This document shows positions 1,885 through 64,000 of a stretch of 64,000 nucleotides of DNA, piece after piece. A model generated the notes under the pieces. It did not search any database and had not been told where the DNA came from. It worked only from the letters and a program-made list of their open reading frames with translations. The translations under genes and the position numbers were made by a program. Source of the DNA: a virus; IMG/VR virus record IMGVR_UViG_3300031962_000002, positions 11,541 through 75,540 of that record; one strand, written 5' to 3'. Positions within the stretch are counted from its first letter, which is position 1; each line of letters begins with the position of its first letter.

Positions 1885-1887
1885 AAT

Positions 1888-4296
1888 TTACCTAATTCTA
1901 CGTGCTCTAATTGAACCAACGAACTGAGGATTGCCTACTGTAAATGTTGCTTGTGCATTTAAATAATAAGTAGTGTTACCACTCAAACTAATTCTATAAG
2001 GTCCAATTACATCCGTGAATTTTGAGGTCCCTAAAAGGGCTGCTTGTGGAACATAGGATATATTTTGACCTTCGGTTGATCCCGAGGCGCTAGCGGTTGT
2101 TGTACTTACTACAAATATTGCATTTGAGGATGCGGTTATAGTCGCTGAATTCGAACTATAAGTAAAAAAGGCAGAAATATCCCAATCGCCTGCGGTTAAA
2201 GCAATTGAAGTAATGTTTTGATATGTCGCACTTGTAGTGAAATTTGTGTAGGTACTTTGAATTGCATTAATTTCTTCCCCAATGTTTCCCGCAGATGCTG
2301 CGTCATTGGTTGCTGTCCCAGCAATTTTATTAGATGTGCCGGTTACGGTTATTGAACCTCCTATTTTTGCTGCTCCATTTGTACCAAGTGCCCACAAATT
2401 GGTAGTAGTTCCGCTCCCATTAGTTGGGACTTCCCAATAACCATTATAAGAATCAGTAATCGTATTCCCTGAGCCAGCATTAACAGTAGGGGATTTAAAA
2501 TAGTGATAGCGTTGAAGAGCAAGTGTTGAAGATCCTGCTGCCCATGTTTGTGTACTGCCAGTCCAAACCGTTTCTGGAAACTCTGTTCCTGCGGTCATTG
2601 CAGTATGCGCACCTGGGTCAACTCGCATTGTTGGTATCCATGAAGCTGAAAGAGCGCTTTGTACATTATAAAAATGTGCATTATCAGAAGTGCTTCCTAA
2701 AAGAAAATCACGATTTGTATTATTATAAAAACGTGCAGCTTCACCGTTTGATACATAGAAACTTTCCCAATATCCTGTGTTTGTAAAAAATTTAAATTCA
2801 CCAGTACTAGGATTAGCCGATATAGCGAAATTTCCTGATCCACCGGCAAATCCCAATTTTGGCGTTCCTGAGTTTGGTCCGATAACTGCAATTTTATTGG
2901 TAGCATCCCAAGTAAAATCAGTGGGAGCCGCCACGGTTGTTGCACTTGTGGCATAAACAATCCCATTTGTATTTAGCCCAGAAAGTCCTCCGCTTGGTGC
3001 CGCACTTGTCCATGTAGTTCCATTGGATGTCAAAACATTTCCATTTGCGCCGACTGCAACACGTGTAGGAGTCGCATATCCACTTGCCCCAACTGCGCCG
3101 CCAACAAGTATATCGCCCTGATTTGTCAATGGATAAATGGGATAGTATTTTGAATCCCAAGAAGCAGTTCCAGTTCCGCTTGTCAAGATACATTTTACAA
3201 TTAAAAAGTCCCCCGCATTCAATGCGATAATGGTATTTGCTCCTGAACTCTGAACTGTCACAACTCCGCTGGATGTGCAATTGTTATAAATTCTAAATTG
3301 CTGACCTAAAACAAGCGTAGACGTTACTGGGAGTGTAACAGTTTGATTGGAAGTAGTTCCAGTGAAATACTGATCTTCTGTACTTGAAACCGTAAGAGTT
3401 GTTGTTGCTCCCGCCGTTGCAGTTGTGGTATATCCAAGCAATGCATTATTAGCAGACAAATTTTTATTAGCATCCCATCCTGCAAATGCGCTAGCTGTTG
3501 GTGCAGATGTTACCGAAGTAACATTGGTCCCTCCATTAGCCACGGGAAGCACTCCAGTCACTCCTGTAGTCAAAGGCAATCCGGTGGCATTCGTTAAGGT
3601 TAAATTCGTAGGAGCAATCCCAAAATTCAAAGACGCGGATGAAGCATTCCCTATCGTAATATTCCCTGAATTGGAACTTGTTCCGATGTTTATATCACCC
3701 GTACTTCCTTGGTTAAGGTTTAAAGTAGTAGTAGAACTTACCGAAAGAGAACCTGAAGAAGGGAATATAGAAGCATTCGCAGCCGTAACTAAATTTCCAA
3801 CCGAGTTAATCGTAAATACCTTCGTGTTCGAACCATTGTTTACATTCCAGTATAGATCAAGAGTTCCTGTAGGATTAGTCAATCCTTGAACCGGAGTAGC
3901 GTACCATAAAAATTTGGTTGATTGACTTGCCGCCGTAGATTGCGTTTTCCATCCTTGTCCCTCAAAAACAAGTGATGGTGAAATCTGTTGGGCTCCCGCT
4001 GCGGCTGCTGTGGCATTTTGTAACCATAATCCTGCCCCGTTAGTTTGCGTTGTTGCAAGAGATGGAAAATTCAATTGAAAGGTATTCGAAGAACTGCCGG
4101 TTATTGACGTAGCCCCAGTAAGTAATGTTGACACAAAAAGACTACCTGATGCCTTTTTATTAACGCCTCCCTGTAGGATTGGGACATAGACGGTTCCACT
4201 CAAATCAGTGGCAGAAGTCATGGCGCTAATTTTCACATCCTGGGAAAATCCTCCGAATGATAAGACTGTGAAAAATAAGAAAAGTAATTTTTTCAT
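1888..4296 (-). CDS. Tail/head fibre-like protein with Sec signal peptide
   Basis: Rich in S/T/G/A, with fibre modules (LTNATGLPLTTGVTGVLPVANGGT; GTATNDAASAGNIGE...LTAGDWD). Start re-assigned to MKKLLFLFFTVLSFGGFSQ at 4296. Confidence 0.7.
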   Translation of the reverse strand: MKKLLFLFFTVLSFGGFSQDVKISAMTSATDLSGTVYVPILQGGVNKKASGSLFVSTLLTGATSITGSSSNTFQLNFPSLATTQTNGAGLWLQNATAAAAGAQQISPSLVFEGQGWKTQSTAASQSTKFLWYATPVQGLTNPTGTLDLYWNVNNGSNTKVFTINSVGNLVTAANASIFPSSGSLSVSSTTTLNLNQGSTGDINIGTSSNSGNITIGNASSASLNFGIAPTNLTLTNATGLPLTTGVTGVLPVANGGTNVTSVTSAPTASAFAGWDANKNLSANNALLGYTTTATAGATTTLTVSSTEDQYFTGTTSNQTVTLPVTSTLVLGQQFRIYNNCTSSGVVTVQSSGANTIIALNAGDFLIVKCILTSGTGTASWDSKYYPIYPLTNQGDILVGGAVGASGYATPTRVAVGANGNVLTSNGTTWTSAAPSGGLSGLNTNGIVYATSATTVAAPTDFTWDATNKIAVIGPNSGTPKLGFAGGSGNFAISANPSTGEFKFFTNTGYWESFYVSNGEAARFYNNTNRDFLLGSTSDNAHFYNVQSALSASWIPTMRVDPGAHTAMTAGTEFPETVWTGSTQTWAAGSSTLALQRYHYFKSPTVNAGSGNTITDSYNGYWEVPTNGSGTTTNLWALGTNGAAKIGGSITVTGTSNKIAGTATNDAASAGNIGEEINAIQSTYTNFTTSATYQNITSIALTAGDWDISAFFTYSSNSATITASSNAIFVVSTTTASASGSTEGQNISYVPQAALLGTSKFTDVIGPYRISLSGNTTYYLNAQATFTVGNPQFVGSIRARRIR

Positions 4297-7857: not shown

Positions 7858-9297
7858 TCATGCTGCTTTTGTCAGAATCAGGAACTTGTTACGGCACCGG
7901 ATTTCCAACCCTTTGTACGACATCGCATTTATCCTCCAGAATGCGGCATCGCTCGTCGCTCCACCAGGGGCCAACGCACCGTCGCTCCATACCCTGTGGT
8001 CACCTTTGTTCTCATGAGCTGCGCCACCACAGTCGGCATATACCAACTGGAGGTAAGGCTCACGATCATTGTAACCATCACCTGGTTCAGGATTCATGGT
8101 CGTTCCCATGGGAATGAAGACAGCCATATCTTTGTACGGCATGTTTCCAGCACCCAGTGAATCAGAATGCGCCAAGCAATCCCATGTCTGCATGTGTAAA
8201 TTGTAAGGCTCGATGTTGATCGACTTGAAATTCAAACTAACTGCCTGTTCTTTGCCCTTGTCAAAGGCATCGAAAGAGATGTTTTTGTCAGAATTCAAAT
8301 TGAAATCAATAAGCCAGTTTTTCCAGCCAAGGTTTAAGTTCAAACCCTGACCTACGATGTAGTCATGCTCCCCGTAGGACCGGTTCAGAATCAAAATCGC
8401 ATCATCCACGGTGGTCATGTCAGGAGTACCAAAATACTCAAGCGTGTTACCATTTGCGTTGATTTGAGGAATCAAACCAGTTGCCATTTGGATGTTCTTC
8501 GAGTTCGCATTGGTAAGCGCATTAGAGGCTGGGTTGACCAATAAAGCCAAGTCTTCCTGATATGCAAACCGATCCATCATTTCATCAATCCCAAGGGGGT
8601 GCAAGAACGGAATACCGTTCCACTCGAATTCTGTTTCGTTACCCTGCGCAAAGTCGCTGGCAAGGTAAGATTCCCTGAAAGCCTGGATGTAGTTCGTCAC
8701 CTTGTCGGTGTTCGGAGTACGGCTTTCCGTAGCGGACGATTGTTCTTGTTGCGCATTGGAGTAGAACACCATCGAAGAACCAACCACTGCGGCTGCAATG
8801 ATATTATAATTCGTGGAGTCTACCGGATAAACCGTCACCGTGTGGGCGCTGTCAACTGTCCTGTTCACAGAATACACATATCCGGCTGTTTGGTTCTCGA
8901 AAAGAACCGTCTGACCAACTACAGGGAATGATTGCTTTCCACCATTCAGGTGATCGCCAGGGGCCAGCGTGATCGTGGCATTCGTGCCATTATCAACAAC
9001 CGTGGTCACCGTAGCGGATGCCGACATCCACTGTCCATTCTCATGGTAGTAGTACTGGAAGCGCTTCGCTTTCCGCTTTCCCATATACCCTTTAACTACT
9101 CTCATCCACTGAAGCGCCGCTGCTTTGGGCACCCGCTGAATGAGTTTCTTGTAATAATCGCGTTGGTAGATATCGTAACTAGATACTAGACCATACGCGA
9201 GAATCTGTCCGTAATTTTCACCGCTGTTTCCATAGGTCGCTGATGGACCGCCTGAACCATTGATGCCCGGAACTGCACTTGCGTTCGTATTTGCCAT
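7858..9297 (-). CDS. Major capsid protein (crAss-like HK97 fold)
   Basis: 479 aa. Motifs TNYIQAFRESY and ATGLIPQI, with C-terminal SYKGLEIRCRNKF. Gene order portal-...-scaffold-MCP and a strong terminator follow. Confidence 0.8.
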   Translation of the reverse strand: MANTNASAVPGINGSGGPSATYGNSGENYGQILAYGLVSSYDIYQRDYYKKLIQRVPKAAALQWMRVVKGYMGKRKAKRFQYYYHENGQWMSASATVTTVVDNGTNATITLAPGDHLNGGKQSFPVVGQTVLFENQTAGYVYSVNRTVDSAHTVTVYPVDSTNYNIIAAAVVGSSMVFYSNAQQEQSSATESRTPNTDKVTNYIQAFRESYLASDFAQGNETEFEWNGIPFLHPLGIDEMMDRFAYQEDLALLVNPASNALTNANSKNIQMATGLIPQINANGNTLEYFGTPDMTTVDDAILILNRSYGEHDYIVGQGLNLNLGWKNWLIDFNLNSDKNISFDAFDKGKEQAVSLNFKSINIEPYNLHMQTWDCLAHSDSLGAGNMPYKDMAVFIPMGTTMNPEPGDGYNDREPYLQLVYADCGGAAHENKGDHRVWSDGALAPGGATSDAAFWRINAMSYKGLEIRCRNKFLILTKAA

Positions 9298-43757: not shown

Positions 43758-43766
43758 GTTGTAAAG

Positions 43767-44459
43767 TTAGTTAATCTTAACCTTCGAACCACTCCATTTG
43801 ATTTTTGTGCGTCCTCCCGAGTTGGGGTGACTGGTGAACGCTTTTGTCTGCTTTTTTGTGGAAGTCCAAGGGGTATTTTCAAACGACTGCTGGCGGGGGA
43901 TAGATTGAGACGCGGGTTTAACGGGCTTTTGGACGGAAGTCACTGGCCGAGTGATTGTTTCTTTTGTAACAGTTGGCTTTCCGGGGATTGGTATCTTAAT
44001 TTTTGCTTGTTTGTACGTGGTTTCATGCCTTCCTGAATACTCTTCTTTGCCTTTATAGTTATAGGAAGTTTGACCTTCTTTCTGCGCATTCATGCGCATT
44101 TGAGTTTTTTCAGGCTTTTCGTGCCGTAGTGCGCCGCTTGCCATGGAGGTTTTTTCATCCACTGGTTTGTTGCCGTGAAAGGAACCTGGCACAAATGTTT
44201 TTTGAGGTACACTGATAGGGCGATCTTCGTAAGTTGTCGGTGTCGATGGGCCTGGTTTTTCAATAGTCTGCGACTTCATGCCCACATTCACTGTGCTGCC
44301 GCGTGACAGATTTTGACCCGGATTGGTTGGATCCGCAATTTTCCCTTTGCTTTTGATTTTGTAACTACCTCCCTGCGCTATTGAGGCCATGCCTCTTTCG
44401 TCTTTCGCCTTACGTGATAACAAGTTTATCTTGGCGAATGGTGGCTTGGTATCTGGCAT
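43767..44459 (-). CDS. Basic, K/P/T-rich disordered protein
   Basis: 230-aa ORF; first gene of the minus-strand structural operon. Confidence 0.6.
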   Translation of the reverse strand: MPDTKPPFAKINLLSRKAKDERGMASIAQGGSYKIKSKGKIADPTNPGQNLSRGSTVNVGMKSQTIEKPGPSTPTTYEDRPISVPQKTFVPGSFHGNKPVDEKTSMASGALRHEKPEKTQMRMNAQKEGQTSYNYKGKEEYSGRHETTYKQAKIKIPIPGKPTVTKETITRPVTSVQKPVKPASQSIPRQQSFENTPWTSTKKQTKAFTSHPNSGGRTKIKWSGSKVKIN

Positions 44460-54894: not shown

Positions 54895-55060
54895 CGCGAA
54901 TAGGGGGCCAGCTCAACATCGCTCGCCAGCCCCCTTTCATACCAGCATCGCGCTGGGGATCATTGGTGCGGGACTCTCGGAGTCCGTTGGCCCTTAACGC
55001 CTGGTGCCCAACGGACGAAACACCAAGCCAAAACCATCCTGCAAACGAGTCCCTTCTTTG
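54895..55060 (-). ncRNA. Candidate structured RNA in an intergenic region
   Basis: Several perfect GC-rich helices: AGGGGGC/GCCCCCT, CCAGC/GCTGG, GTCCGTTGG/CCAACGGAC, GGGACTC/GAGTCCC and TTGGTG/CACCAA. Confidence 0.4.
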
Positions 55061-55198
55061 GATTTACTTTAAATATCTGCGGCCCACTATCCTAGTGATC
55101 AATCAAGGAATTCAATTGTCAGCAAATAGTCTTCGTAACGTTCCGAATGTCTCCACTAAAAATTGCTTTTCATGGGCCTTTCTCAACATAAGTTATCT

Positions 55199-55390
55199 TT
55201 ATTGAGGCACCAACTGCGCCTCTTCTTCATCATTTTTAGCCGCTTCGGTCTTGATCAAAATATCGACCATTCCGATTCTTGCGTGGATGTACCGCTCATT
55301 TTCGCACACAATACGGTTTGGATTGACTGTTTTCATAGCCGTTTCCTGTAATCCTTCCTGACCACAAATTGGACAAATTAGCCGTTCCAT
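55199..55390 (-). CDS. Small zinc-finger hypothetical protein
   Basis: CPICG...C...H; a consensus promoter lies immediately upstream. Confidence 0.55.
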   Translation of the reverse strand: MERLICPICGQEGLQETAMKTVNPNRIVCENERYIHARIGMVDILIKTEAAKNDEEEAQLVPQ

Positions 55391-55394
55391 ACCT

Positions 55395-55425
55395 CAAATA
55401 TAACTATCTTAAATACCACTCCAAA
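55395..55425 (-). promoter_or_regulatory. Bacteroidota-type promoter (near-leaderless transcript)
   Basis: TTTG-N19-TATATTTG, 4 nt before the ATG. Confidence 0.6.
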
Positions 55426-55490
55426 CTATTTTTAACATTTTATATTTTGAATAGGTTTTATTTGTTAGTTAAATAGTTTTTAATTGACTG

Positions 55491-55691
55491 TCATAACCAC
55501 TTGCCAAACTTGTCTACACGCCCCGGTATTAAATAATCAAAAGGCACGCATTCAATGTCTGTGAATCCCATTCCTTCCTTTTAGGCGATTACTTTTTCGG
55601 CCTCTTTCGCCTTTTCTTCAGTAGAAAAAACGCCGTAAATGATGAATCCACTATCTCTACCTTCGCTGTGATATAATAACCAAACTGTCAT
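55491..55691 (-). pseudogene. Small phage gene interrupted by an in-frame TAA
   Basis: MTVWLLYHSEGRDSGFIIYGVFSTEEKAKEAEKVIA*KEGMGFTDIECVPFDYLIPGRVDKFGKWL; stop at 55581-55583. Confidence 0.55.
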
Positions 55692-55854
55692 CTGAATAGT
55701 TTAACGACTCCAATCCCTCCGCATGCGACACAAATGCGCTCCAAATTTGTCACAGCGTCAATCCTGCGACCAGTTCCGTTGCAGCATGGGCAATCTACTT
55801 TAACCAAGTGAAGTGGTTCTGCTTTATGTGTAGTGCCACCACCCAGGATACCAT

Positions 55855-56118
55855 TTACCTTTCGACACTTTGCATTTCCATTTTAGGATACATCAAATCG
55901 TTGATTTGTTTCTTGGTCTGGTCGATGGTCGTGTTCAGGGTTTTGATAAGGCCATCGAAGAAAAGAGGTTGGTTTTCCTTAAGTATGATGTCTTCGGAGG
56001 CCACCACCTTGATGGTTACATCAGCACCCTGGTCGCGCTGGGCCACAGCCTCTTCAAGGTATTTCTCCAATTTCTCCAATTCAAGGGCCAAAACCGCTAC
56101 TGTCTTTGTTGCTGCCAT
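55855..56118 (-). CDS. Hypothetical coiled-coil protein
   Basis: Likely start MAATKTVAV. Confidence 0.55.
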   Translation of the reverse strand: MAATKTVAVLALELEKLEKYLEEAVAQRDQGADVTIKVVASEDIILKENQPLFFDGLIKTLNTTIDQTKKQINDLMYPKMEMQSVER

Positions 56119-56258
56119 AATTTTTTGTTGAATTAAAAAGCCTCCTGACCGCCAAAACAGGAGGTTTACAATTTTACCTAAACTCACAAATTTGAATCGA
56201 ATGCTCCGACCACGCCTGGCGATTTTTAGCCGGACTACGAACACAATCCGCAGTATTT

Positions 56259-56456
56259 TTATTTATTTGAAATGCGTTTTTCAAACCTCTCCAATTTTTC
56301 GTTCATATCCCTTAATATCTGGGCGGCTCCGCGACCGTCCTTTTTTTCAAGTAGTGCTTTAACTTCTTCCATCCGCTCTCTGGTAATGATCTTTTTGACT
56401 CCTTTCTTTGCCCAAGGAACCATGTCTTTGAAGCCGAATAGTTCACCGTCAGCCAT
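56259..56456 (-). CDS. Hypothetical protein
   Basis: Coupled ORF in the minus-strand gene run. Confidence 0.55.
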   Translation of the reverse strand: MADGELFGFKDMVPWAKKGVKKIITRERMEEVKALLEKKDGRGAAQILRDMNEKLERFEKRISNK

Positions 56457-56739
56457 CTGATAGACGCTCTCCTAGCATAAAAACCTCCATCAAGTCATAC
56501 TCTAGTTGATCGCTTGTCACCAGTGCCTCAAATGAGTCCTCGTTAAACAACGCGAACGGCAGTTCTGCCAGAAGTAGGTATTTATGTTTCGGGTGGAATG
56601 GTGAGTCACCAAACGGGTACAATTGAACTGTGTACACCTTCCCGAACTTTGGCATTTTGTCGTCTGAAATGGGTTCGCCAAAGGCAATGTTGAATTTCTC
56701 TTTCTTTGGAGTGATTTCTTGACCTAGTTTAAAGCGCAT
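56449..56739 (-). CDS. Hypothetical protein
   Basis: MRFKLGQE...PKFGKVYTV. Confidence 0.6.
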   Translation of the reverse strand: MRFKLGQEITPKKEKFNIAFGEPISDDKMPKFGKVYTVQLYPFGDSPFHPKHKYLLLAELPFALFNEDSFEALVTSDQLEYDLMEVFMLGERLSDG

Positions 56740-56944
56740 GGTTCGATGATTTAATTTCAAATGTCTTGTTCTTAAACATCAAAATCTGGTCTGTAGTGCA
56801 ATGAAGTATTTCCGAAGTATCGCATATTACCACTGTCCAAATGTCATTTTCGAACATCCCTCCTGATTCCACGTAGATTGCATAAGCCTCCTTTTTGGTC
56901 TTCTTTATGATCAAAGGAATAGGCTTGGCAAACTCGTGTATCAT
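56729..56944 (-). CDS. Hypothetical protein
   Basis: MIHEF...YAIYVESGGMFENDIWTV. Confidence 0.6.
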   Translation of the reverse strand: MIHEFAKPIPLIIKKTKKEAYAIYVESGGMFENDIWTVVICDTSEILHCTTDQILMFKNKTFEIKSSNHAL

Positions 56945-57006
56945 CGATTAAGAGATAACGATTTTAGAGCAAGGAAAGTCTTTGAATTTGTCCAATTCGA
57001 TGGCTA

Positions 57007-57252
57007 TCAGTCTTGCTCGTTGTCGGCTGATACGGGCTCCAATCTCGCTTTGAAGTCGGCTTTCACATCTTTCAGTTCATCAAGGATGGTGGCCTGAAGG
57101 ATGGATTTCTCTGCGAGTTGGTCTTTGTAGAAGGCGAGTTCTTCCGGCCCCAGCGGTTTTACGTACTTGCCCTCCTGAATGGCGGAGGCTTCGTTTTGGA
57201 GGACGAGTTTTCGGTCGTCATGCGATAGTGCTTTAAGTCTGTCGATGTCCAT
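57007..57252 (-). CDS. Hypothetical protein
   Basis: Has a TAACC-type leader and helical sequence. Confidence 0.6.
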   Translation of the reverse strand: MDIDRLKALSHDDRKLVLQNEASAIQEGKYVKPLGPEELAFYKDQLAEKSILQATILDELKDVKADFKARLEPVSADNEQD

Positions 57253-57285
57253 GGTTTATTTGGTTAGGTTAAATTACAAAAAATT

Positions 57286-57714
57286 CTAAAAAGGAAGATC
57301 ATCAGATAATGGCCCAGTGCCTAATCCTTGACCCTCATAATGTGTCCTGAGCGAAGTGTCCTCTTCCTCTGTTGGCGTTGTGCCTTTCAGCGCCTCTCCT
57401 TGGACTCTTCCTGGAGATCCACCTGGCTGCCACCCTCGGCGCTGCTGGTCGTCCCATTCCATCTTCCAGCACCGGACGTCCGTATACCACCTTCCATTGT
57501 ACTCCCGGCTTTCAAGGTTGATATGAGCTGTCACGGTGAGACCTTCCACAAGGTCGTACTTGTTGATCGCCTCTTCCCCCCACAGGTTCATGCATATCGG
57601 CTTTGGATATTGCCCGGGTTGCTCCAGTACAAACTCCTGTTTATACCAGTTGCCTTTCTTGCCGTTTCCCGTCTGAATTGGGTACACCTTGATAATCTTG
57701 CCTTTTATTTCCAT
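57286..57714 (-). CDS. DUF3127 single-stranded DNA-binding protein
   Basis: MEIKGKI, WYKQEFVLE, SREYNGRWYTDVRCW and C-terminal DDLPF. Confidence 0.9.
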   Translation of the reverse strand: MEIKGKIIKVYPIQTGNGKKGNWYKQEFVLEQPGQYPKPICMNLWGEEAINKYDLVEGLTVTAHINLESREYNGRWYTDVRCWKMEWDDQQRRGWQPGGSPGRVQGEALKGTTPTEEEDTSLRTHYEGQGLGTGPLSDDLPF

Positions 57715-58307
57715 TTTATCACTTCTTAACCATCAACAAATCAACCCCCTCATGTATCGTCCACAACCTCCCTCCGCTTCCCTTAACTACCGGATGACCT
57801 ACGTTACCATCCTTAGCCAATCCCAACTTCCTCGCACTAGCCCCGATTTCCCGCAATACTACACTATTCACCGTCCCAACAACTATATCAGAATGGCTTA
57901 CCGCTACCGTCACTTTCTTTTGATTATCTCCTGTCATCGACACAAATGTATCATCTACCCCGAACAAACAAAACATTTATGTACATTTATTTTCAAACAA
58001 ACAATAAACAGACCCGATACAGATACATTTAGGAGGTATCCTCCCCATTTGGACGGGTCAAAAATCGCGTCCCCGAACGCTTTATTTTGATGGGGTGGGG
58101 TCATTTTTGGACTCTCAATCGCTGTTTTTTGAAAACTGGCCGATAACTCCCAGCGCGAGGAAACTACCTGGAATTTGAATGCATATTCTTTGATAGAATG
58201 TGCAAATGGCGCAATATGACACGCATTCAATGAATTGTCAATTTTGACCCATAATATTTGTCGCTCATGACCGAGATTTCAGGTCAAAACATTATGTTAA
58301 ATAAACC

Positions 58308-58349
58308 TGCAAAAATGGCAGAATGATGGTTTCTCATGCAAAAATGGCA
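58308..58349. repeat. 13-bp direct repeat TGCAAAAATGGCA x2 in the strand-switch region
   Basis: Copies at 58308-58320 and 58337-58349; a degenerate copy at 58201. Confidence 0.6.
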
Positions 58350-58899
58350 TGATTTGGAGAGTGTGGGTGTATCATATTTTCATATTTGGGTATTTTTTGT
58401 GTGATTATTTACGTTTTTGGGTATTTTTTGGTTGGATGGATGTGTTTTGTGGTGTGTTGTTGTGGAAATGAAGAGAATGCGGGGTTTTGTGTTTTGAGTT
58501 TGTTGATGGGGTCTTTTTTTTTGTTCTTCGCCTGTTGTCCGTCTTGGCCTCTTCTCTCCGTCCTTCGGGGGCTTACGCCTACCATCTTCTGGGCGGCGTG
58601 GTGGTCCGTGGATTTGGTGTGGAATGGGGAGAGAATTTTGGCGATATCGGTAAACGAGGGTTTTGGGGTGATATGCGAATTGAGCGAAATAAAGGGGGTG
58701 AATTTTGGAATGGAGTGTACGATAGTCGGTAAAGTTGGCAACCGTTGCAAGGAAAATGGGTTAGTGGCGTGTTTTTAGTTAAAGTGTGTAATTAGTGGTG
58801 TTTTAGTTGTTTTGATGGTGAGTATTATAGATATATTAAATAGTTCTTGTGTGTTATGCACATTATATAGATATTGGTGCAAGAATTAACCAAAATTAT

Positions 58900-59085
58900 A
58901 TGAAAACTTTAAAAGAGATCAGCAAATTATCACCTAGTAGTTATACTATTTGTGATAACCAAGTTAACAAAGGCAATTTAAAATCGTGGTCTGATCGGAT
59001 TGAAATATATGTTCATTCTGATAGGAAAGCTAAAATCGTTAGTAGACTCGCGGCATATAAACATGGATTGGCCGAAAGGCCGTAA
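58900..59085 (+). CDS. Hypothetical early protein
   Basis: Start MKTLKEIS, preceded by TTAACCAAAATTAT. Confidence 0.6.
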   Translation: MKTLKEISKLSPSSYTICDNQVNKGNLKSWSDRIEIYVHSDRKAKIVSRLAAYKHGLAERP

Positions 59086-59094
59086 ATTCCACAA

Positions 59095-59148
59095 GGTTAA
59101 CTGACGAGAGGTTAATCCTCGAAACGGCCACAACTGGCCGTATTAACC
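59095..59148 (+). ncRNA. Hammerhead ribozyme (type I) HH1
   Basis: GGUUAA-CUGACGA-GAGG(UUAAU)CCUC-GAAA-CGGCCA(CAAC)UGGCCG-UA^-UUAACC. All core nucleotides and three perfect stems are present; predicted cleavage after 59142. Confidence 0.93.
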
Positions 59149-59161
59149 AAAAAAAAACTTT

Positions 59162-59326
59162 ATGAAGATGAAAACACAAGACGATTTAGGGCTTACATTG
59201 GATGCAGTCGCAGTCTACCTATATGGTCGCCCTTATTCAGAATTGGGTGAGTTTGAGCAAAATGCCGTAGAACTTGAATTGGAAGACCGTTTACGAACAA
59301 CCACCCAAAGCCATGACAACGGTTAG
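59162..59326 (+). CDS. Hypothetical protein, 54 aa
   Basis: Translated by hand (MKMKTQDDLGLTLDAVAVYLYGRPYSELGEFEQNAVELELEDRLRTTTQSHDNG). Begins 19 nt after the HH1 cut. Confidence 0.6.
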   Translation: MKMKTQDDLGLTLDAVAVYLYGRPYSELGEFEQNAVELELEDRLRTTTQSHDNG

Positions 59327-59404
59327 CCAGTTCACATCCCAAGATGTGGTGGCAAGGTCACAGTCTCCAATCCAAGAGTTTATCAAAATTAACCAACAAA
59401 CAAT

Positions 59405-59785
59405 ATGAAAACCATCTATTTAAGAAACGAGAAATTTGAGGGGACAAAATTCGAGTATGATAATTTGTCTGACATCTCATTGACTGATCGTAAAATAACG
59501 GTCGGCAATGGGGCAACGGTCGGCGATGGGGCAAGGGTCGGGCAAGCAAATGCTATTTTTGCTTTAAATCTGTACAAGTACGCATCCTCCGGTTATTTCA
59601 CGAAAGAGGGTGTACAAATGATACAACTCGGTTGCTATCTTCGCATGCGCACTGAATGGGAAAACGACTTTTGGAACAATACAAATGAATTCCCAAATGA
59701 TGGTAGTTCCTCATCTGAAGCCAGAATGCGTGCCTTCAAAACCATTTGTTTCTTTTTGGATAATGTTAAACCTGAAGAGAAATGA
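59405..59785 (+). CDS. Hypothetical protein with short hexapeptide (LbH) repeats
   Basis: ITVGNGATVGDGARVG; IQLGC...EWENDFWNN. Confidence 0.7.
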   Translation: MKTIYLRNEKFEGTKFEYDNLSDISLTDRKITVGNGATVGDGARVGQANAIFALNLYKYASSGYFTKEGVQMIQLGCYLRMRTEWENDFWNNTNEFPNDGSSSSEARMRAFKTICFFLDNVKPEEK

Positions 59786-60114
59786 AAGCAACAATCAAAT
59801 TCGATCTAGGAATCTATTCCTTCCACAGACTCATCCACGGCCCAGTCTGCGCGGATGACAGCAAAGTAAAAGAAAGTTCAATCCTGGGCGTCCTGCACCC
59901 CCTCACGACCGTGGATCCGGCCAACATATACTGCTATGCGGTTGACAGGTCATCCGGCGAGGTGCGCCAATTGGTCCGTAAGAATTTGCGGTTTAAGAAG
60001 GTCCTCACATTATCATGTGATGTGGAGCATGGGCGCGAGGTAGAATTACACGCAAAATTGAATGCTGCTTATCAGTTTTTGATGGATGAAACCAAACAGT
60101 TACAATTAGCATGA
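59782..60114 (+). CDS. Hypothetical protein
   Basis: ATGA-coupled ORF. Confidence 0.65.
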   Translation: MKATIKFDLGIYSFHRLIHGPVCADDSKVKESSILGVLHPLTTVDPANIYCYAVDRSSGEVRQLVRKNLRFKKVLTLSCDVEHGREVELHAKLNAAYQFLMDETKQLQLA

Positions 60115-60377
60115 AAACTACATTGGCAATACAAATTACAGCTATTGAAAAGGCGCGTGAATTGATTAAGACAATCGCCTCAAGCGTTCTTGAGCCATCA
60201 GCGAAGAAAGAACTTGATTATTATCTTGGATTGGATGAAGCCTTGAAAGATGCTGGTTCAACTCTTGCCTCATTGCATTTGGGAGGAAGTGTTCCGTTGG
60301 ATGCGGAAATGGTTGAAAGCATTGAAAGAATTTTTGGTAAGGCAAACGAACGAACAAAGTTAACTGAAGATCGCTGA
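60111..60377 (+). CDS. Hypothetical protein; its 3' end overlaps hammerhead HH2
   Basis: ATGA-coupled ORF whose TGA stop lies in the HH2 stem II loop. Confidence 0.65.
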   Translation: MKTTLAIQITAIEKARELIKTIASSVLEPSAKKELDYYLGLDEALKDAGSTLASLHLGGSVPLDAEMVESIERIFGKANERTKLTEDR

Positions 60378-60411
60378 ATGCGTGAAACCGGACTGCACAT
60401 CCGGTATTAAC
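60359..60411 (+). ncRNA. Hammerhead ribozyme (type I) HH2
   Basis: GUUAA-CUGAAGA-UCGC(UGAAU)GCGU-GAAA-CCGGA(CUGCACA)UCCGG-UA^-UUAAC. The core is intact with a U-U at 10.1/11.1; predicted cleavage after 60406. Confidence 0.85.
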
Positions 60412-60427
60412 CAAAATAACAAATTAT

Positions 60428-61066
60428 ATGCCTTACATGTCCTCTGAACGAACTGCCGAGATACGCAAAGCGATTAAAGCAGAATTTCCAGACTACAAGT
60501 TCTCAATCATCAATGAACACCATTCCGGAATCAGAATTGCCATCCTCTCCGGCCCACTTCAATTATTAAGCCCTGACCATTTGGAACGGGGTCGCGAACA
60601 AGTCAATGAGTACTACATCCGTGAGCACTTTGCCGAACGGCCAGAGACAAGCAAGATATTGCTGCGAATCAAGGAAATTGCCAACGAAGGTAATGGTACA
60701 GAAAGCACGGATGGAGATTACGGCAATATCCCACATTTCTATCTCACCATTGAAATAGGCAAGTGGGATGAGGCCTACAAAGTCATTGAACGGGGACGAT
60801 TAACCCCACGCATCGAAGGAGTTCCTCCCACTGGAGATAAAATAGCCACCTGCAAACTCAACCAAGCTAAAGGAGGCGTCGAACTTTATTTCCCCGCAAA
60901 TCCAGGGCGGGCAGTGCTGGACGATTTAACAGTCAACAGATTCAGGTGGTCACGGTTTAATAAGTGTTGGTACGCCAAGGACAATTCGATAGCCCGTAAG
61001 GTAGCCGAGAAGTACGCGACCATTCCTGTAGAGGAAGAAGCGAAGATCGCTATACCCGGATTCTAA
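60428..61066 (+). CDS. LPD29-like (large-polyvalent-protein-associated) domain protein
   Basis: IRKAIKAEFPDYKFSI, TDGDYG...FYLTIEIGKWD and C-terminal FRWSRFNKCWYAK. Confidence 0.75.
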   Translation: MPYMSSERTAEIRKAIKAEFPDYKFSIINEHHSGIRIAILSGPLQLLSPDHLERGREQVNEYYIREHFAERPETSKILLRIKEIANEGNGTESTDGDYGNIPHFYLTIEIGKWDEAYKVIERGRLTPRIEGVPPTGDKIATCKLNQAKGGVELYFPANPGRAVLDDLTVNRFRWSRFNKCWYAKDNSIARKVAEKYATIPVEEEAKIAIPGF

Positions 61067-61087
61067 AGCACATTTTTTGGTTAATTG

Positions 61088-61117
61088 GTCTGCTCAGAAA
61101 TGGGCAGGCTTTTTTTA
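61088..61117 (+). terminator. Intrinsic terminator of the early operon
   Basis: GTCTGCTCA-GAAA-TGGGCAGGC-TTTTTTT. Confidence 0.8.
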
Positions 61118-61120
61118 TGC

Positions 61121-61360
61121 CTACACCCGTTCAGGACCGTAGACTGATTGCTTAACAAGAGTTACAAAATTGAAATATATCTGATTGTCTTCAACCTTTA
61201 AATTGGTGCGCGATTCTACATCCTTTTTGGCCGATTGCAAGAGGTATTTAAAAATCTCTGGAGCGGTTAATTTTTCGGCGCCAATTATATCAAGTGACGA
61301 CTGGTGAATGTCATTAGGATGAGTGATTACTGTGAAGGAGTAAATGTAAGAAAGAACCAT
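61121..61360 (-). CDS. Hypothetical protein
   Basis: Likely start MVLSYIYSF immediately after the upstream stop. Confidence 0.5.
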   Translation of the reverse strand: MVLSYIYSFTVITHPNDIHQSSLDIIGAEKLTAPEIFKYLLQSAKKDVESRTNLKVEDNQIYFNFVTLVKQSVYGPERV

Positions 61361-61361
61361 T

Positions 61362-61760
61362 TTAAACAGCATTTGGATCATCCGGTGGCAAACCACCTCC
61401 GTAAATGTCAATTGGTTTGAATTCTTCCGGCTCGGAAGGAGCAACCACTGGTTCAGTGACCAGTGGTTGAGGTTGCAGCTCCTTCGCTGGGGGAGGGGTC
61501 AAGCGAGAACCAGGTGAATGATTTAAGTTTAAGGTTATGGGATGGCGCCCGGGTTTTAGTGGATTGGGGAATAATTCCTCAAAGGTCTGGCCAGTGTAAA
61601 GCAAAATCTTGTGGTAATCTTCAAGTGTCAGCCGGCCTTGCCTAATCCGGTAGCGCCACATCTGATAACTGATCCCCAGCCGATGCACGGCAAATTCTTG
61701 TGGCTTGATATTTAGCTGCCGTAAGGCAACCGTCAGGCGGTCTGGCTCTTTTCTTCCCAT
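61362..61760 (-). CDS. XRE/Cro-like HTH regulator
   Basis: QEFAVHRLGISYQMWRYRI...TFEELF; divergent from the next operon. Confidence 0.65.
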   Translation of the reverse strand: MGRKEPDRLTVALRQLNIKPQEFAVHRLGISYQMWRYRIRQGRLTLEDYHKILLYTGQTFEELFPNPLKPGRHPITLNLNHSPGSRLTPPPAKELQPQPLVTEPVVAPSEPEEFKPIDIYGGGLPPDDPNAV

Positions 61761-61891
61761 GTGCTTAGGCAAATATAGATATTTTAGATAAACAACACAG
61801 TTTAGTTAAAATAATTATATTGATTGTTTTGGAATTTGTTCACTTATTAACAACATTTGTGCACACGAACGCAAAATAACCAACAATCCTC

Positions 61892-62176
61892 ATGGAAAAA
61901 CCAGCCCAAAAAGAGGAACTTTTCACCGAAGAAGACAGAATCCAAGAAGATTTAGAGGCCAAAAAATCTCTCATCCAGCCCTCTCTTGATGAGCAAGTGA
62001 AATTCATTAACCGAAAGAAAGCAGCCTCTATTGGCTTCCCGGACTTTCACCTCTACCAAGCCGTTGAAGAAAATTTGATAGGTCTGCGACTGTTCGAAGA
62101 AGCCGAGCGGCGCCAGCAGGGAAAGCCAACTCCTGAAAGTGTCTTCCAGTTAGCAAAATCAGATCCTCTTATCTAA
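61892..62176 (+). CDS. Hypothetical protein
   Basis: ORF with a TAACCAA leader. Confidence 0.6.
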   Translation: MEKPAQKEELFTEEDRIQEDLEAKKSLIQPSLDEQVKFINRKKAASIGFPDFHLYQAVEENLIGLRLFEEAERRQQGKPTPESVFQLAKSDPLI

Positions 62177-62183
62177 TTTAGGT

Positions 62184-62414
62184 ATGAGTCCGCAATTCTT
62201 TCACAACTATTTTCCGATCATGCAACTCAATGACGCTGATTTCTTTTCGATTTGGTGCCTGAATTTTTCCGGCCAATTGAAAAAACTGCATGAAGAATTG
62301 GTAGTTGAGGATGAAAATGGAGAGATGGCAAATTTCCAAGGAATGAACTTCGAGGACTTCTGTATTTTGACCTACCAACAACGACCAGATTTAATCTCAT
62401 ACACTCAAAATTAA
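62184..62414 (+). CDS. Hypothetical protein
   Basis: Packed ORF in a plus-strand operon. Confidence 0.55.
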   Translation: MSPQFFHNYFPIMQLNDADFFSIWCLNFSGQLKKLHEELVVEDENGEMANFQGMNFEDFCILTYQQRPDLISYTQN

Positions 62415-62420
62415 ACTTTT

Positions 62421-62777
62421 ATGAAAGAATACATACTTGGTTTCACATTGGTATTTTTAGGATTCTGTCTCGGGTGTTTATTTGGTAGCCTTAGTGGTTA
62501 TGAATACGCAAAACGCCAAATAATCCCCTCAACAATCGTGCAGTCTTCTGAAACAAAATATCGTTCTTTTCCAATAATAAAGATGAGCGAATTTCAAGAA
62601 ACCGATTCTGTTCAAGGGGGTTATTTCATCGGTATTCTCAAAATAAAAAATGGCGGATTTAAACACGTTAAGTATCCTGTCTCGCTATTCGTAACAAAAG
62701 AGAACGATGTGATTCTTCAAGAGGTTGTTTTACAACTTAATGACAGAGTAAAGAAACTTGAAACCCAACTCAAATGA
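62421..62777 (+). CDS. Hypothetical membrane-anchored protein
   Basis: N-terminal transmembrane helix. Confidence 0.6.
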   Translation: MKEYILGFTLVFLGFCLGCLFGSLSGYEYAKRQIIPSTIVQSSETKYRSFPIIKMSEFQETDSVQGGYFIGILKIKNGGFKHVKYPVSLFVTKENDVILQEVVLQLNDRVKKLETQLK

Positions 62778-62983
62778 CCGTAATCAACAACAAACTTTTC
62801 ATCGCTCATCCTCATGGGGTAAGAATCCTACACGATGCCAGTGCACGGCAATTCATCCCAACTCATTCCTTCGACTATGCTGCCATCCTAGGCCTCGACA
62901 AACCTATGCGCCGAGTGAAAGCTCATACCTATGTCTGGTCTTCGTCTCAACATTGCCATGTAGTAAGGCATCCTAAATTTTAA
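62774..62983 (+). CDS. Hypothetical protein
   Basis: ATGA-coupled ORF. Confidence 0.45.
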   Translation: MTVINNKLFIAHPHGVRILHDASARQFIPTHSFDYAAILGLDKPMRRVKAHTYVWSSSQHCHVVRHPKF

Positions 62984-62987
62984 AATC

Positions 62988-63176
62988 ATGAGATTCACTT
63001 TAAAAAAAGGGTTATTATCTTTTGAAGATACTCGGATATATAATAGTGAAGGACCACCTAAACTAGGTCACATTATTTCTGAAATAACTAGGTCTATTGC
63101 TACGAAGTTTCAAAAAGTAGAAGTCGTTGAGTGGAAATGCAAAGGATTTATCGGCTACAAAAACAAAACGAAATGA
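62988..63176 (+). CDS. Hypothetical protein
   Basis: Packed ORF. Confidence 0.45.
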   Translation: MRFTLKKGLLSFEDTRIYNSEGPPKLGHIISEITRSIATKFQKVEVVEWKCKGFIGYKNKTK

Positions 63177-63565
63177 CCATCCAAGAACTACGTATTGGTA
63201 ACATCATTCGCCACAATGTAAAAGACGAAACAGAAAGTCTCACTGGCTTCTGTGAACCTAACGAAGATGCTATAAGTGAAGATGACATGTGGCATTTCAC
63301 TGGTGGAGTAGGCTTTGAGGATGCTGAACCAATTCCGTTAACGCGAGAATGGTTAGAAAAATTTGGGTTATTTAAGTACAATAATGCATGGGTATTTGAA
63401 ATGCCGGAAGAGCGACAATATTTAGGAGGCTTTTCAATTTTTGATTACGGCAATCGGTTGGCCTACAATACGTCCGACATAATTAACCCTCCATTGGAGT
63501 TTGTTCATCAACTCCAAAATCTATATTTCGCTTTGACTGGTGAAGAGTTAACATTGAAAAAATGA
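63173..63565 (+). CDS. Hypothetical protein, paralog of 16323-16682
   Basis: ELRIGN, EPIPLTREWL and FVHQLQNLYFALTGEEL. Confidence 0.8.
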   Translation: MTIQELRIGNIIRHNVKDETESLTGFCEPNEDAISEDDMWHFTGGVGFEDAEPIPLTREWLEKFGLFKYNNAWVFEMPEERQYLGGFSIFDYGNRLAYNTSDIINPPLEFVHQLQNLYFALTGEELTLKK

Positions 63566-63903
63566 GACCCCTTGACGATTTACCTATTGATTTTAAACTA
63601 AAAGATCAAAACAAAGAGATTGCTGCCGGACGTTACATGACAGTTCATCCTTTCATTAAAAAATACCATATATCCATGGATGTGTATGATGAACCCACAC
63701 AAGAGCGTGTCACGCTCCTTTTAATTTGCTTGGTATCTGCTACCAAGAAATTATTTAGGAACGTAAACCGATATCCTACATTCGATGAGTGTTTAATGTG
63801 TCGTAACCTGTTCTTCAATGAGGATGATGTAGTCTTTCAATTAATTCAAGTACAAGAAGTAATAGAGGGGCAGTTTTTTGCAACCTTAATAAGACTGAAA
63901 TGA
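63562..63903 (+). CDS. Hypothetical protein (RYPT..E...LFF motif)
   Basis: NRYPTFDECLMCRNLFFNEDDVVFQ; ATGA-coupled. Confidence 0.65.
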   Translation: MRPLDDLPIDFKLKDQNKEIAAGRYMTVHPFIKKYHISMDVYDEPTQERVTLLLICLVSATKKLFRNVNRYPTFDECLMCRNLFFNEDDVVFQLIQVQEVIEGQFFATLIRLK

Positions 63904-64000
63904 TCTGCGGCTTCCAACAAAAATTTCCATGGGGTGAACCAACTTGGTTCCGTGAAAAAATACTTGCAGGAGCAGGATACGCAACAACTGAAACGCATCC

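What the first reader, a model, noticed from the sequence alone, without database searches (positions are those of the whole stretch)
59095..59165. HH1 cleavage generates a standard translation leader
Seen in sequence: the cut after 59142 leaves UUAACCAAAAAAAAACUUU-AUG (19 nt). The 3' strand of stem I is the TTAACCAA motif that also precedes genes with no ribozyme (58886, 59389, ~61878). Inference: stem I sequesters the initiation region until cleavage and product release, so self-cleavage may gate translation. The 5'-OH end may also stabilise the message against 5'-monophosphate-dependent decay.
Basis: partly seen in the sequence, partly recalled or inferred. Interest (0 to 1): 0.72.

Follow-up and report, generated by a model that had tools for sequence, protein, structure and literature searches.

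The report
Phage hammerhead cuts at gene leader
A genuine self-cutting hammerhead RNA sits between two small genes of an uncultured phage and cuts exactly at the front edge of a short A-rich leader that the phage also uses without a ribozyme; there is no evidence that the uncut ribozyme hides the start codon.

Summary
Bases 59095-59148 (+) form a complete type I hammerhead. The cut after A59142 leaves a 19-nt leader before ATG 59162, or 25 nt if ATG 59168 is the start. TTAACCAA also precedes ATG 58900 and ATG 59405 without a ribozyme, and ATG 60428 behind a second hammerhead. The site at 61878 is ATAACCAA.

The ribozyme belongs to a large class in uncultured phage contigs. I found 104 unique examples. 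Stems II and III covary, stem I is almost always GGUUAA/UUAACC, and the cut lies 18-24 nt before an ATG in 71 of 104. An unbiased sample shows that the 6-bp stem I, the flanking A and AA, and the U-N-A-N-U loop II are general ribozyme features. UUAACC is the commonest of several phage-specific stem I words.

The "standard leader" reading is supported. The "gating" reading is not: folding predicts the start region is equally open before and after cleavage (0.70 vs 0.74), and only UUAACC is paired. 5'-OH protection fits the RNases in three Bacteroidota genomes that carry the class, but it is untested.

Most likely this is constitutive cutting between genes, a natural counterpart of the synthetic RiboJ insulator. 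The scan had already found this ribozyme class in other phages. Cleavage, expression and effect are untested.

The parts
58886..58899 (+). TTAACCAA leader without a ribozyme, before ATG 58900 (61-aa ORF, first gene of the + strand operon)
   Evidence: No CUGANGA core upstream. Covariance model R1 finds nothing here.
58900..59085 (+). Upstream ORF (61 aa). Its stop at 59083-59085 ends 9 nt before the ribozyme.
   Evidence: No Pfam or PHROG match.
59094..59150 (+). HH1: type I hammerhead including the conserved unpaired A (59094) and AA (59149-59150). Stem I 59095-59100/59143-59148, core 59101-59107, stem II/loop II 59108-59120, GAAA 59121-59124, stem III 59125-59140, U16.1-A17 59141-59142.
   Evidence: R1 score 76 bits, E 3.7e-15; HH1 was in the training set. 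Family covariation.
59142..59143 (+). Predicted self-cleavage site (after A17). It would leave a 2',3'-cyclic phosphate upstream and a 5'-OH on U59143.
   Evidence: Position follows from the hammerhead core numbering. The chemistry is established knowledge of the class (PMC8782182). Cleavage was not measured.
59143..59161 (+). Leader left on the downstream RNA: UUAACC + A9 + CUUU (19 nt, or 25 nt if ATG 59168 is used)
59162..59326 (+). Downstream ORF (54 aa, or 52 aa from ATG 59168). It is an orphan with no relatives.
59389..59404 (+). TTAACCAA leader without a ribozyme, before ATG 59405 (126-aa ORF)
   Evidence: The spacer folds only into an ordinary hairpin and has no Rfam match.
60359..60411 (+). 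HH2: second type I hammerhead. It has a 5-bp stem I, a U-U at 10.1/11.1, and the upstream ORF's stop TGA (60375-60377) in loop II. It cuts after 60406.
   Evidence: 63.8 bits
60407..60427 (+). Leader left by HH2 (TTAACCAAAATAACAAATTAT) before ATG 60428 (212 aa, LPD29-like)
61087..61117 (+). Intrinsic-terminator-like hairpin plus T run that closes the operon 58900-61066
61878..61891 (+). Near-match leader ATAACCAA before ATG 61892 (first gene of the next + strand operon)

Best explanation
HH1 is an active, constitutive, cis-cleaving type I hammerhead from a large class found in uncultured phages; prophage-like copies lie in Bacteroidota genomes. It sits in the 76-nt spacer between the first and second genes of a six-gene + strand operon, which I take to be the early operon. 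As soon as stem I is transcribed, it cuts the polycistronic RNA after A59142.

Stem I is only 6 bp and AU-rich, so the products should separate quickly. The upstream RNA ends in the compact ribozyme fold with a 2',3'-cyclic phosphate. The downstream RNA begins with a 5'-OH on UUAACCAA, followed by an unstructured A-rich tract and the start codon.

The ribozyme therefore punctuates the operon. It gives an internal gene the same short leader that other genes of the operon carry without a ribozyme, and it frees that gene from upstream sequence, structure and ribosome traffic. This is a natural counterpart of the synthetic RiboJ insulator.

Shown here: the motif, its covariation, the conserved spacing, the reuse of the leader word, and that three host-type genomes do not use that word as a leader.

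Inferred: cleavage in vivo, fast product release, and any gain in translation or stability. The start codon is not predicted to be masked before cleavage, so any benefit would come from the new 5' end and the physical separation, not from unmasking.
For: All core positions fit the hammerhead consensus, and the motif is beyond chance.

In 71 aligned family members, stems II and III show many compensatory changes. Pair 17-27, for example, is GC 34, UA 18, AU 11, CG 7. Overall 98.7% of cells are paired vs 74.7% in shuffles, and 0 of 500 shuffles reach the observed value.

Among 104 unique ribozymes in 80 loci, the cut lies 18-24 nt before an ATG-ORF in 71. Of 35 ribozymes that were not forced by my search pattern, 28 have UUAACC and 32 have AA next.

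In an unbiased sample of 92 type I ribozymes, stem I is typically 6 bp with an A on the 5' side, AA on the 3' side and loop II U-N-A-N-U. Ribozymes within one phage tend to share a stem I word.

In this window, all four genes of operon 58900-61066 that have their own leader use TTAACCAA. Two of the four leaders are made by ribozymes.

TTAACCAA without a ribozyme precedes an ATG-ORF 30 times in the family loci. Permuted words give a mean of 6.0 (sd 3.9).

Three Bacteroidota genomes that carry the class show no excess of TTAACCAA-N8-16-ATG over the reversed control, so the leader belongs to the phage.

The stem I duplex is worth only -4.1 kcal/mol.

Precedents: hammerheads flank genes in prophages, and one lies 13 nt before a start codon in haloviruses HF1/HF2 with a mapped 5' end (PMC3088659). 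RiboJ hammerhead insulators normalise the 5' UTR, and uncleaved mRNA was modelled as decaying about twice as fast (PMC7536230).
Against: There are no RNA data: the only listed run is the DNA source sample.

No Rfam hammerhead model reports this site, even at E<=10 on 69 bases.

The downstream ORF is an orphan, so its expression is assumed.

The conserved spacing could simply reflect genome compaction: a ribozyme placed directly against a minimal initiation region.

The leader word does not need to be at a 5' end. At 59389, and in other phages, it lies inside transcripts. The best promoter-like boxes would put the start sites about 66 nt (58886) and about 13 nt (61878) upstream of the word.

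No close relatives of this locus exist that would allow comparison with and without the ribozyme.
Confidence: 0.6

Rival explanations
1. While uncut, stem I (with the docked AA) holds part of the ribosome-binding region. Ribosomes can load on the second gene only after cleavage and product release, so self-cleavage gates translation.
For: UUAACC is predicted to be about 70% paired before cleavage and 98% free after it. In HH1 the AA that follows stem I falls at -13/-12 relative to ATG 59162, and A at those positions promotes initiation in Flavobacterium johnsoniae (PMC6847099). A three-way junction ending at -14 would abut the 30S exit channel (my inference from established 30S footprints). 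In fungal RNA viruses a type I hammerhead must be catalytically active for downstream translation (bioRxiv 10.1101/2024.05.16.594327).
Against: The start codon and -13..+15 are predicted to be equally open before and after cleavage: 0.70 vs 0.74 for HH1, and a median gain of 0.04 over 81 members. In most of the class the paired strand lies at -22 to -17, outside the A-rich -14..-11 determinant. If ATG 59168 is the start, the strand lies at -25 to -20. There is no sensor domain, so nothing would be regulated. The AA is conserved with every stem I word, so it is explained by the ribozyme itself.
Confidence: 0.15
2. The main benefit is differential mRNA stability, not translation. The 5'-OH end escapes 5'-monophosphate-sensing RNase E/G, and the folded ribozyme with a cyclic phosphate caps the 3' end of the upstream piece. 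Each gene segment then decays at its own rate.
For: Three Bacteroidota genomes that carry this ribozyme class encode RNase E/G and RNase Y, and no RNase J scored above cut-off. In E. coli circuits, cleaved RiboJ transcripts were treated as about twice as stable as uncleaved ones (PMC7536230).
Against: This is untested here. The host of this particular phage is unknown. In Bacillus subtilis the 5'-OH product of the glmS ribozyme is the preferred RNase J1 substrate and is degraded rapidly (PMC3328962). Stability alone does not explain why the cut is placed at a reused leader word.
Confidence: 0.15
3. The ribozyme plus the TTAACC word is mainly a DNA-level cassette boundary. Shared sequence lets phages swap small accessory genes or copy the ribozyme module, and RNA cleavage is secondary. 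Alternatively, the identical ends allow RNA ligation or circularisation.
For: Ribozymes in one phage share a stem I word. The genes served are small, diverse and mostly orphans: the median is 77 aa, 4 of 71 have a Pfam match (all DUFs), and PHROG matches fall in 14 families, all of unknown function. An earlier scan note (e1-5891051) reports gene swapping at hairpin-TTAACC spacers.
Against: Stems II and III diverge freely while stem I stays fixed across very different contigs. That argues for selection on the word, not recent copying. The full catalytic core is maintained. I saw no evidence for circles, and stem I is too weak to hold the products together.
Confidence: 0.07
4. The motif is a chance or decayed look-alike that does not cleave.
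For: Rfam models do not report it, and no activity data exist.
Against: All invariant core positions are present. None of 200 shuffles gave an equal hit. More than 100 relatives show compensatory changes.
Confidence: 0.03

Closest known systems
Hammerhead ribozymes in phage and prophage operons (Perreault et al. 2011, PMC3088659), including the halovirus HF1/HF2 ribozyme 13 nt upstream of an early-gene start codon
   Same: A self-cleaving hammerhead between, or in front of, co-directional phage genes. There are several per operon, they sit close to a start codon, and they lie in what I take to be early genes. The presumed role is RNA processing.
   Different: Here stem I is an open 6-bp helix with a nearly fixed sequence, and that sequence is reused as a gene leader without a ribozyme. 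The spacing to the ATG is conserved over about 100 examples. The upstream stop codon usually lies inside the ribozyme. No Rfam model detects the class.
RiboJ and related synthetic ribozyme insulators (described in PMC7536230)
   Same: A hammerhead placed just upstream of the ribosome-binding region removes the variable upstream RNA and leaves a defined short 5' UTR with a 5'-OH.
   Different: RiboJ is engineered from a type III satellite-RNA ribozyme and carries an added 23-nt hairpin. The phage element is a natural type I ribozyme followed by an unstructured A-rich leader suited to Shine-Dalgarno-independent initiation.
Type I hammerheads in the 5' UTRs of chrysoviruses and fusariviruses that are needed for translation initiation (bioRxiv 10.1101/2024.05.16.594327)
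   Same: A type I hammerhead lies upstream of an ORF, and catalytic activity is linked to translation of the downstream product.
   Different: Those are eukaryotic RNA viruses with cap-independent initiation. Their ribozymes seem to lack loop-loop contacts and are slow. The phage class has conserved candidate tertiary-contact nucleotides and acts on a bacterial polycistronic mRNA.
glmS ribozyme (summarised in PMC3328962)
   Same: Self-cleavage in a bacterial 5' leader creates a 5'-OH on the coding RNA and changes its fate.
   Different: glmS is ligand-dependent, and its cleavage destabilises the mRNA through RNase J1. The phage hammerhead has no sensor, and RNase J was not found in the three host-type genomes I checked.

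Membership tests
Hammerhead ribozyme (type I) | Conserved core: C3 U4 G5 A6 N7 G8 A9, G12 A13 A14, the A15.1-U16.1 pair, and H17 not G | tested here: met
   CTGACGA at 59101-59107, GAAA at 59121-59124, U59141, A59142. The descriptor scan finds it.
Hammerhead ribozyme (type I) | Three helices around the core, supported by covariation; stem I open (type I topology) | tested here: met
   98.7% of cells are paired. Stems II and III have 3 of 4 and 5 of 6 pairs with changes on both sides. Slid controls give 24-40% paired. Caveat: the members were collected with a descriptor that requires minimal pairing.
Hammerhead ribozyme (type I) | Tertiary contact between stem I and stem II elements, needed for fast cleavage at physiological Mg2+ | tested here: inconclusive
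   The candidate elements are conserved: loop II U-N-A-N-U, an A 5' of stem I (92%), AA 3' of it (96% and 92%), and a 6-bp stem I in nearly all members. They hold whatever the stem I word. Whether these nucleotides actually touch cannot be tested with these tools.
Hammerhead ribozyme (type I) | Site-specific self-cleavage giving a 2',3'-cyclic phosphate and a 5'-OH | not testable with these tools
   No RNA run holds the locus. This needs in vitro transcription or end-specific RNA-seq.
Hammerhead ribozyme (type I) | Match to a curated Rfam hammerhead covariance model | tested here: not met
   There is no hammerhead hit at gathering score or at E<=10, even on 69 bases. None of about 30 relatives in 11 loci is reported. 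I read this as a gap in the models, because the defining core and helices are all present.
Ribozyme insulator (RiboJ-like function) | Ribozyme directly upstream of the translation initiation region, with the cut leaving a short defined leader | tested here: met
   The cut lies 19 nt (or 25 nt) before the ATG here, and 18-24 nt in 71 of 104 relatives.
Translation control by sequestration (riboswitch-like masking) | Start codon or ribosome-binding determinants base-paired in the 'off' state and released in the 'on' state | tested here: not met
   The unpaired probability of -13..+15 is 0.70 uncut vs 0.74 cut for HH1, and 0.62 vs 0.68 over 81 relatives. Only UUAACC changes. This is thermodynamic prediction only.

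The most novel reading that the evidence does not exclude
In phages of Shine-Dalgarno-less Bacteroidota, hammerheads act as natural insulators wired into translation. The upstream gene's stop codon usually lies inside the ribozyme, at the UAA of GGU-UAA or the UGA of the CUGA core, so a terminating ribosome controls when the ribozyme can fold. The cut then hands the next gene a standard phage-specific 5'-OH leader (UUAACCAA plus an A-tract) that is needed for efficient initiation or for escape from 5'-end-dependent decay. That would give bacterial hammerheads a defined job in gene expression.
Probability: 0.2. Interest if true: 0.75.

Novelty: new variant of a known kind. Interest (0 to 1): 0.45.

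Why it matters
What the thousands of hammerheads in bacteria and phages are for has been open since 2011. This class gives that question a concrete form. It has a fixed cut position relative to start codons. It has a leader word that occurs both with and without the ribozyme in the same operon, which is a built-in control. It also has an upstream stop codon placed inside the ribozyme.

If cleavage proves to raise downstream expression, these would be natural versions of the insulators that synthetic biologists built by hand, ready-made for Bacteroidota, where Shine-Dalgarno-based parts do not work. If cleavage has no such effect, the element remains an ordinary operon-punctuating ribozyme.

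There is also a practical point. Rfam models miss the whole class, so phage annotation pipelines will not report it.

Tried and rejected
- **Rfam.** Searches at gathering score and at E<=10 on 701, 121 and 69 bases gave no hammerhead hit.
- **Cultured phages.** Megablast of 55000-64000 and blastn of a multi-ribozyme locus gave no match.
- **Relatives of this locus.** There are none for the 54-aa ORF and only two partial relatives of the 212-aa ORF. I could not compare orthologous loci with and without the ribozyme.
- **Sequencing runs.** No RNA holder is listed. The only run is a soil-metagenome DNA run that is probably the source.
- **Literature search for the motif strings.** It returned only unrelated primers.
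- **Idea: UUAACCAA is a host translation signal.** Rejected. Three Bacteroidota genomes show no excess over the reversed control.
- **Idea: every mRNA of the operon starts exactly at UUAACCAA.** Not supported. There is no Bacteroidota -7 box at the right distance before 58886 or 61878.
- **Idea: loop II pairs with the cleavage-site strand in an alternative fold.** Rejected. Loop II stays U-N-A-N-U whatever the stem I word.
- **Idea: other stem I words are also reused as ribozyme-free leaders.** Only TTAACC shows this convincingly. Overall there were 45 cases vs 29 expected.
- **Idea: the spacer before 59389 hides another ribozyme.** It folds into an ordinary hairpin (z -1.1) and has no Rfam match.
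- **Bacteroidota genome survey.** Model R1 found the class only in the genome used as the centre, out of 151 sampled. It is rare in bacterial genomes.

Full report
**Setting.** The window is the last 64 kb of a 75.5-kb IMG/VR virus record estimated to be 94% complete. Most genes lie on the - strand, including a 3843-aa gene. From about 58900 a block of small + strand ORFs begins. The first operon runs from ATG 58900 to the stop at 61066 and ends at a strong terminator-like hairpin at 61087-61110. Its six ORFs have almost no family matches. The exception is the last one, which is LPD29-like.

**Observation.** GGTTAA (59095-59100) pairs with TTAACC (59143-59148). Between them lie CTGACGA, a 4-bp stem II with loop TTAAT, GAAA, and a stem III of CGGCC/GGCCG, followed by U59141 and A59142. 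Every invariant hammerhead position is present.

RNAfold returns the three-way junction as the minimum free energy structure (z -3.4). It also survives in a 161-nt context. My descriptor scan finds this site as the only complete type I motif in 64 kb. No equally good match appeared in 200 Markov shuffles, and loose matches are expected at 0.135 per window.

The cut after 59142 leaves UUAACC-A9-CUUU before ATG 59162. The gene call on record starts at the in-frame ATG 59168, which has A at -3 and -6. The leader is therefore 19 or 25 nt.

By eye, and then with a covariance model, I found a second ribozyme, HH2, at 60359-60411. It cuts after 60406, again in front of TTAACCAA, 21 nt before ATG 60428.

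**A large family.** Chance alone could give roughly that many pattern hits, so I filtered by structure. That left 120 ribozymes, 104 of them unique, in 80 loci.

In an alignment of 71 members, stems II and III are full of compensatory changes while stem I hardly varies. Overall 98.7% of cells are paired against 74.7% in shuffles, and slid controls give 24-40%.

Thirty-five ribozymes in the same loci did not match my seed pattern and so were not forced to carry the word. Even so, 28 have UUAACC and 32 have AA after it.

The distance from the cut to the first ATG opening an ORF of at least 30 aa is 18-24 nt in 71 of 104, with a mode of 22. The genes served are small, with a median of 77 aa, and are mostly of unknown function.

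Rfam reports none of these ribozymes. It did find a twister-P3 ribozyme next to hammerheads in one locus.

**Ribozyme features versus leader features.** A second scan used only CTGATGAG-N11-CGAAAC, with no constraint on stem I. It gave 92 unique type I ribozymes.

Their stem I words are diverse: TTAACC 10, TTAGTC 7, TTTGAC 6, TTGTTC 5 and many others. Across the recurring words, stem I is nearly always 6 bp, it is preceded by A, it is usually followed by AA, and loop II is typically U-N-A-N-U.

These features are therefore properties of the ribozyme, most likely its stem I/stem II tertiary contact. They do not belong to a translation signal.

Ribozymes within one contig tend to share the word, for example four TTAGAC, three TTAACC or four TTAATC.

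**The leader word without a ribozyme.** In this window, all four genes of the first operon that have their own leader carry TTAACCAA 14-21 nt before the ATG. Genes 4 and 5 overlap their predecessors and have no leader. The first gene of the next operon has ATAACCAA, and three - strand genes have CTAACCAA.

In the family loci, ribozyme-free TTAACCAA is followed by an ATG-ORF at 12-32 nt in 30 of 92 cases. Eighty permuted words gave a mean of 6.0 (sd 3.9, max 26). Some contigs use the word for most of their small genes.

Other stem I words are not clearly reused in this way.

Three Bacteroidota genomes that carry the ribozyme class show no excess of the leader pattern over a reversed control. 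The word therefore belongs to the phages and is not a general host signal. Its function is unknown.

The word need not be 5'-terminal. The best -7-box-like sites would start transcription about 66 nt and about 13 nt upstream of the words at 58886 and 61878 (TSS spacing from PMC6847099).

**Testing the gating idea.** I computed pairing probabilities for the uncut RNA (120 nt upstream to 60 nt into the ORF) and for the cut product.

| Region | HH1 uncut | HH1 cut | 81 relatives uncut | 81 relatives cut |
|---|---|---|---|---|
| -13..+15, unpaired probability | 0.70 | 0.74 | 0.62 | 0.68 |
| UUAACC, unpaired probability | 0.30 | 0.98 | 0.55 | 0.87 |

Only a quarter of the relatives gain more than 0.1 in the -13..+15 region. 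The start codon and the A-tract are thus predicted to be open either way.

In most members the paired strand lies at -22 to -17, outside the A-rich -14..-11 determinant described for Flavobacterium johnsoniae (PMC6847099). A steric effect of a three-way junction abutting the 30S subunit remains possible, especially for HH1 if ATG 59162 is used. The data do not call for it, and the ribozyme has no sensor domain.

Stem I is worth only -4.1 kcal/mol, so product release should be fast and effectively irreversible.

**Coupling to the upstream gene.** Of 88 ribozymes with a clear upstream ORF, 71 have that ORF's stop codon inside or touching the ribozyme:
- 38 at the UAA of GGU-UAA;
- 20 at the UGA of the CUGA core;
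- 8 at a UAG that includes the first G;
- 5 in stem II or loop II.

A terminating ribosome would cover the core, so upstream translation and ribozyme folding must compete. HH1 is a mild exception, with its stop 9 nt upstream. HH2 has its stop in loop II. Part of this pattern is automatic, because two of the three frames meet a stop in GGTTAACTGA. Even so, the read-through frame is clearly avoided.

**The 5'-OH idea.** Three Bacteroidota genomes that carry the class encode RNase E/G and RNase Y, and no RNase J scores above cut-off. Escape from 5'-monophosphate sensing is therefore plausible. The B. subtilis route, in which RNase J1 destroys the 5'-OH product of glmS (PMC3328962), may not apply. 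The host of this phage is not known, and nothing was measured.

**Comparison with known systems.** Clustered hammerheads flanking genes in prophages, and a halovirus hammerhead 13 nt before an early-gene start with a mapped 5' end, were described in 2011 (PMC3088659). Synthetic RiboJ insulators do by design what is proposed here (PMC7536230). Type I hammerheads of fungal RNA viruses need catalysis for downstream translation (bioRxiv 10.1101/2024.05.16.594327).

Earlier notes of this scan had already found the same ribozyme class in three other phage genomes and judged it a known kind. One note described hairpin-TTAACC spacers between swappable gene cassettes.

What is added here:
- the family-wide link between cut site and start codon;
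- the separation of ribozyme features from the leader word;
- the reuse of the word without a ribozyme;
- the stop-in-ribozyme layout;
- a negative result for start-codon masking.

**Verdict.** The "standard leader" reading is supported at the sequence level. The "gating by stem I" reading is not supported by folding predictions. The 5'-OH idea remains open. The element is a hammerhead of a known general kind, with an undescribed and testable relationship to translation start sites.

Noticed in passing
window 60359-60411; also L015, L043, L058, L065: HH2 has a U-U mismatch at positions 10.1/11.1 instead of the usual G-C. The same U-U recurs in at least four unrelated family members, and 8 of 71 aligned ribozymes lack a standard pair there. 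It looks like a tolerated natural variant.
   Followed up: partly
L020 (six copies, e.g. 8480-8545 on the - strand), L059, L072: In three contigs the ribozyme is followed by a conserved ~27-nt element where the short leader and ATG would normally be. It reads AAAAGU-S-AG..GCA-S-ACUAUAACAGGC and has a compensatory GUC/GAC to GUG/CAC change. There is no Rfam match. It may be a structured leader or another RNA module.
   Followed up: partly
L062:6669-6747: A twister-P3 ribozyme (Rfam RF03154, 40.3 bits) lies a few hundred bases from four hammerheads in the same small-gene block. This fits the known clustering of ribozyme classes.
   Followed up: no
L137, L200, L204, L205, L216, L226: Other phage contigs carry hammerheads with a closed stem I (type III-like). 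These also end 15-20 nt before an ATG, so there the ribozyme would stay attached to the 5' end of the downstream mRNA.
   Followed up: no
window 59077-59089 with 59182-59194: RNAfold predicts a long-range helix between the end of the upstream ORF and codons 8-11 of the downstream ORF. It would enclose HH1, the leader and the start codon. I did not test it for conservation, and it may be chance.
   Followed up: no
window 59070-59081: A GGCC-GAAA-GGCC hairpin lies inside the end of the upstream ORF, 13 nt before HH1. GGCC occurs four times between 59070 and 59139, including both strands of stem III, so misfolding alternatives exist.
   Followed up: no
window 57266, 54880, 36268 (- strand): Three - strand genes have a CTAACCAA leader 7-12 nt before their ATG. 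The core word TAACCAA is therefore not confined to the + strand operon.
   Followed up: partly
window 43765-43784 (- strand): AAGGTTAA-NN-TTAAC at the end of a - strand gene is a weak R1 hit (E 1.4). It consists only of the two stem I arms, which is what a ribozyme deletion between the TTAA repeats would leave. It could also be chance.
   Followed up: no
window 1843-1930 (+): A loose type II hammerhead-like match with three 3-bp stems, antisense to the - strand genes. Loose matches are expected at about 0.14 per window, so this is probably chance.
   Followed up: no
window 59108-59120: HH1's stem II and loop II contain a second GGTTAA. After cleavage the upstream product is predicted to refold with its stem I strand paired to this copy, which would block religation. 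This is specific to HH1.
   Followed up: no
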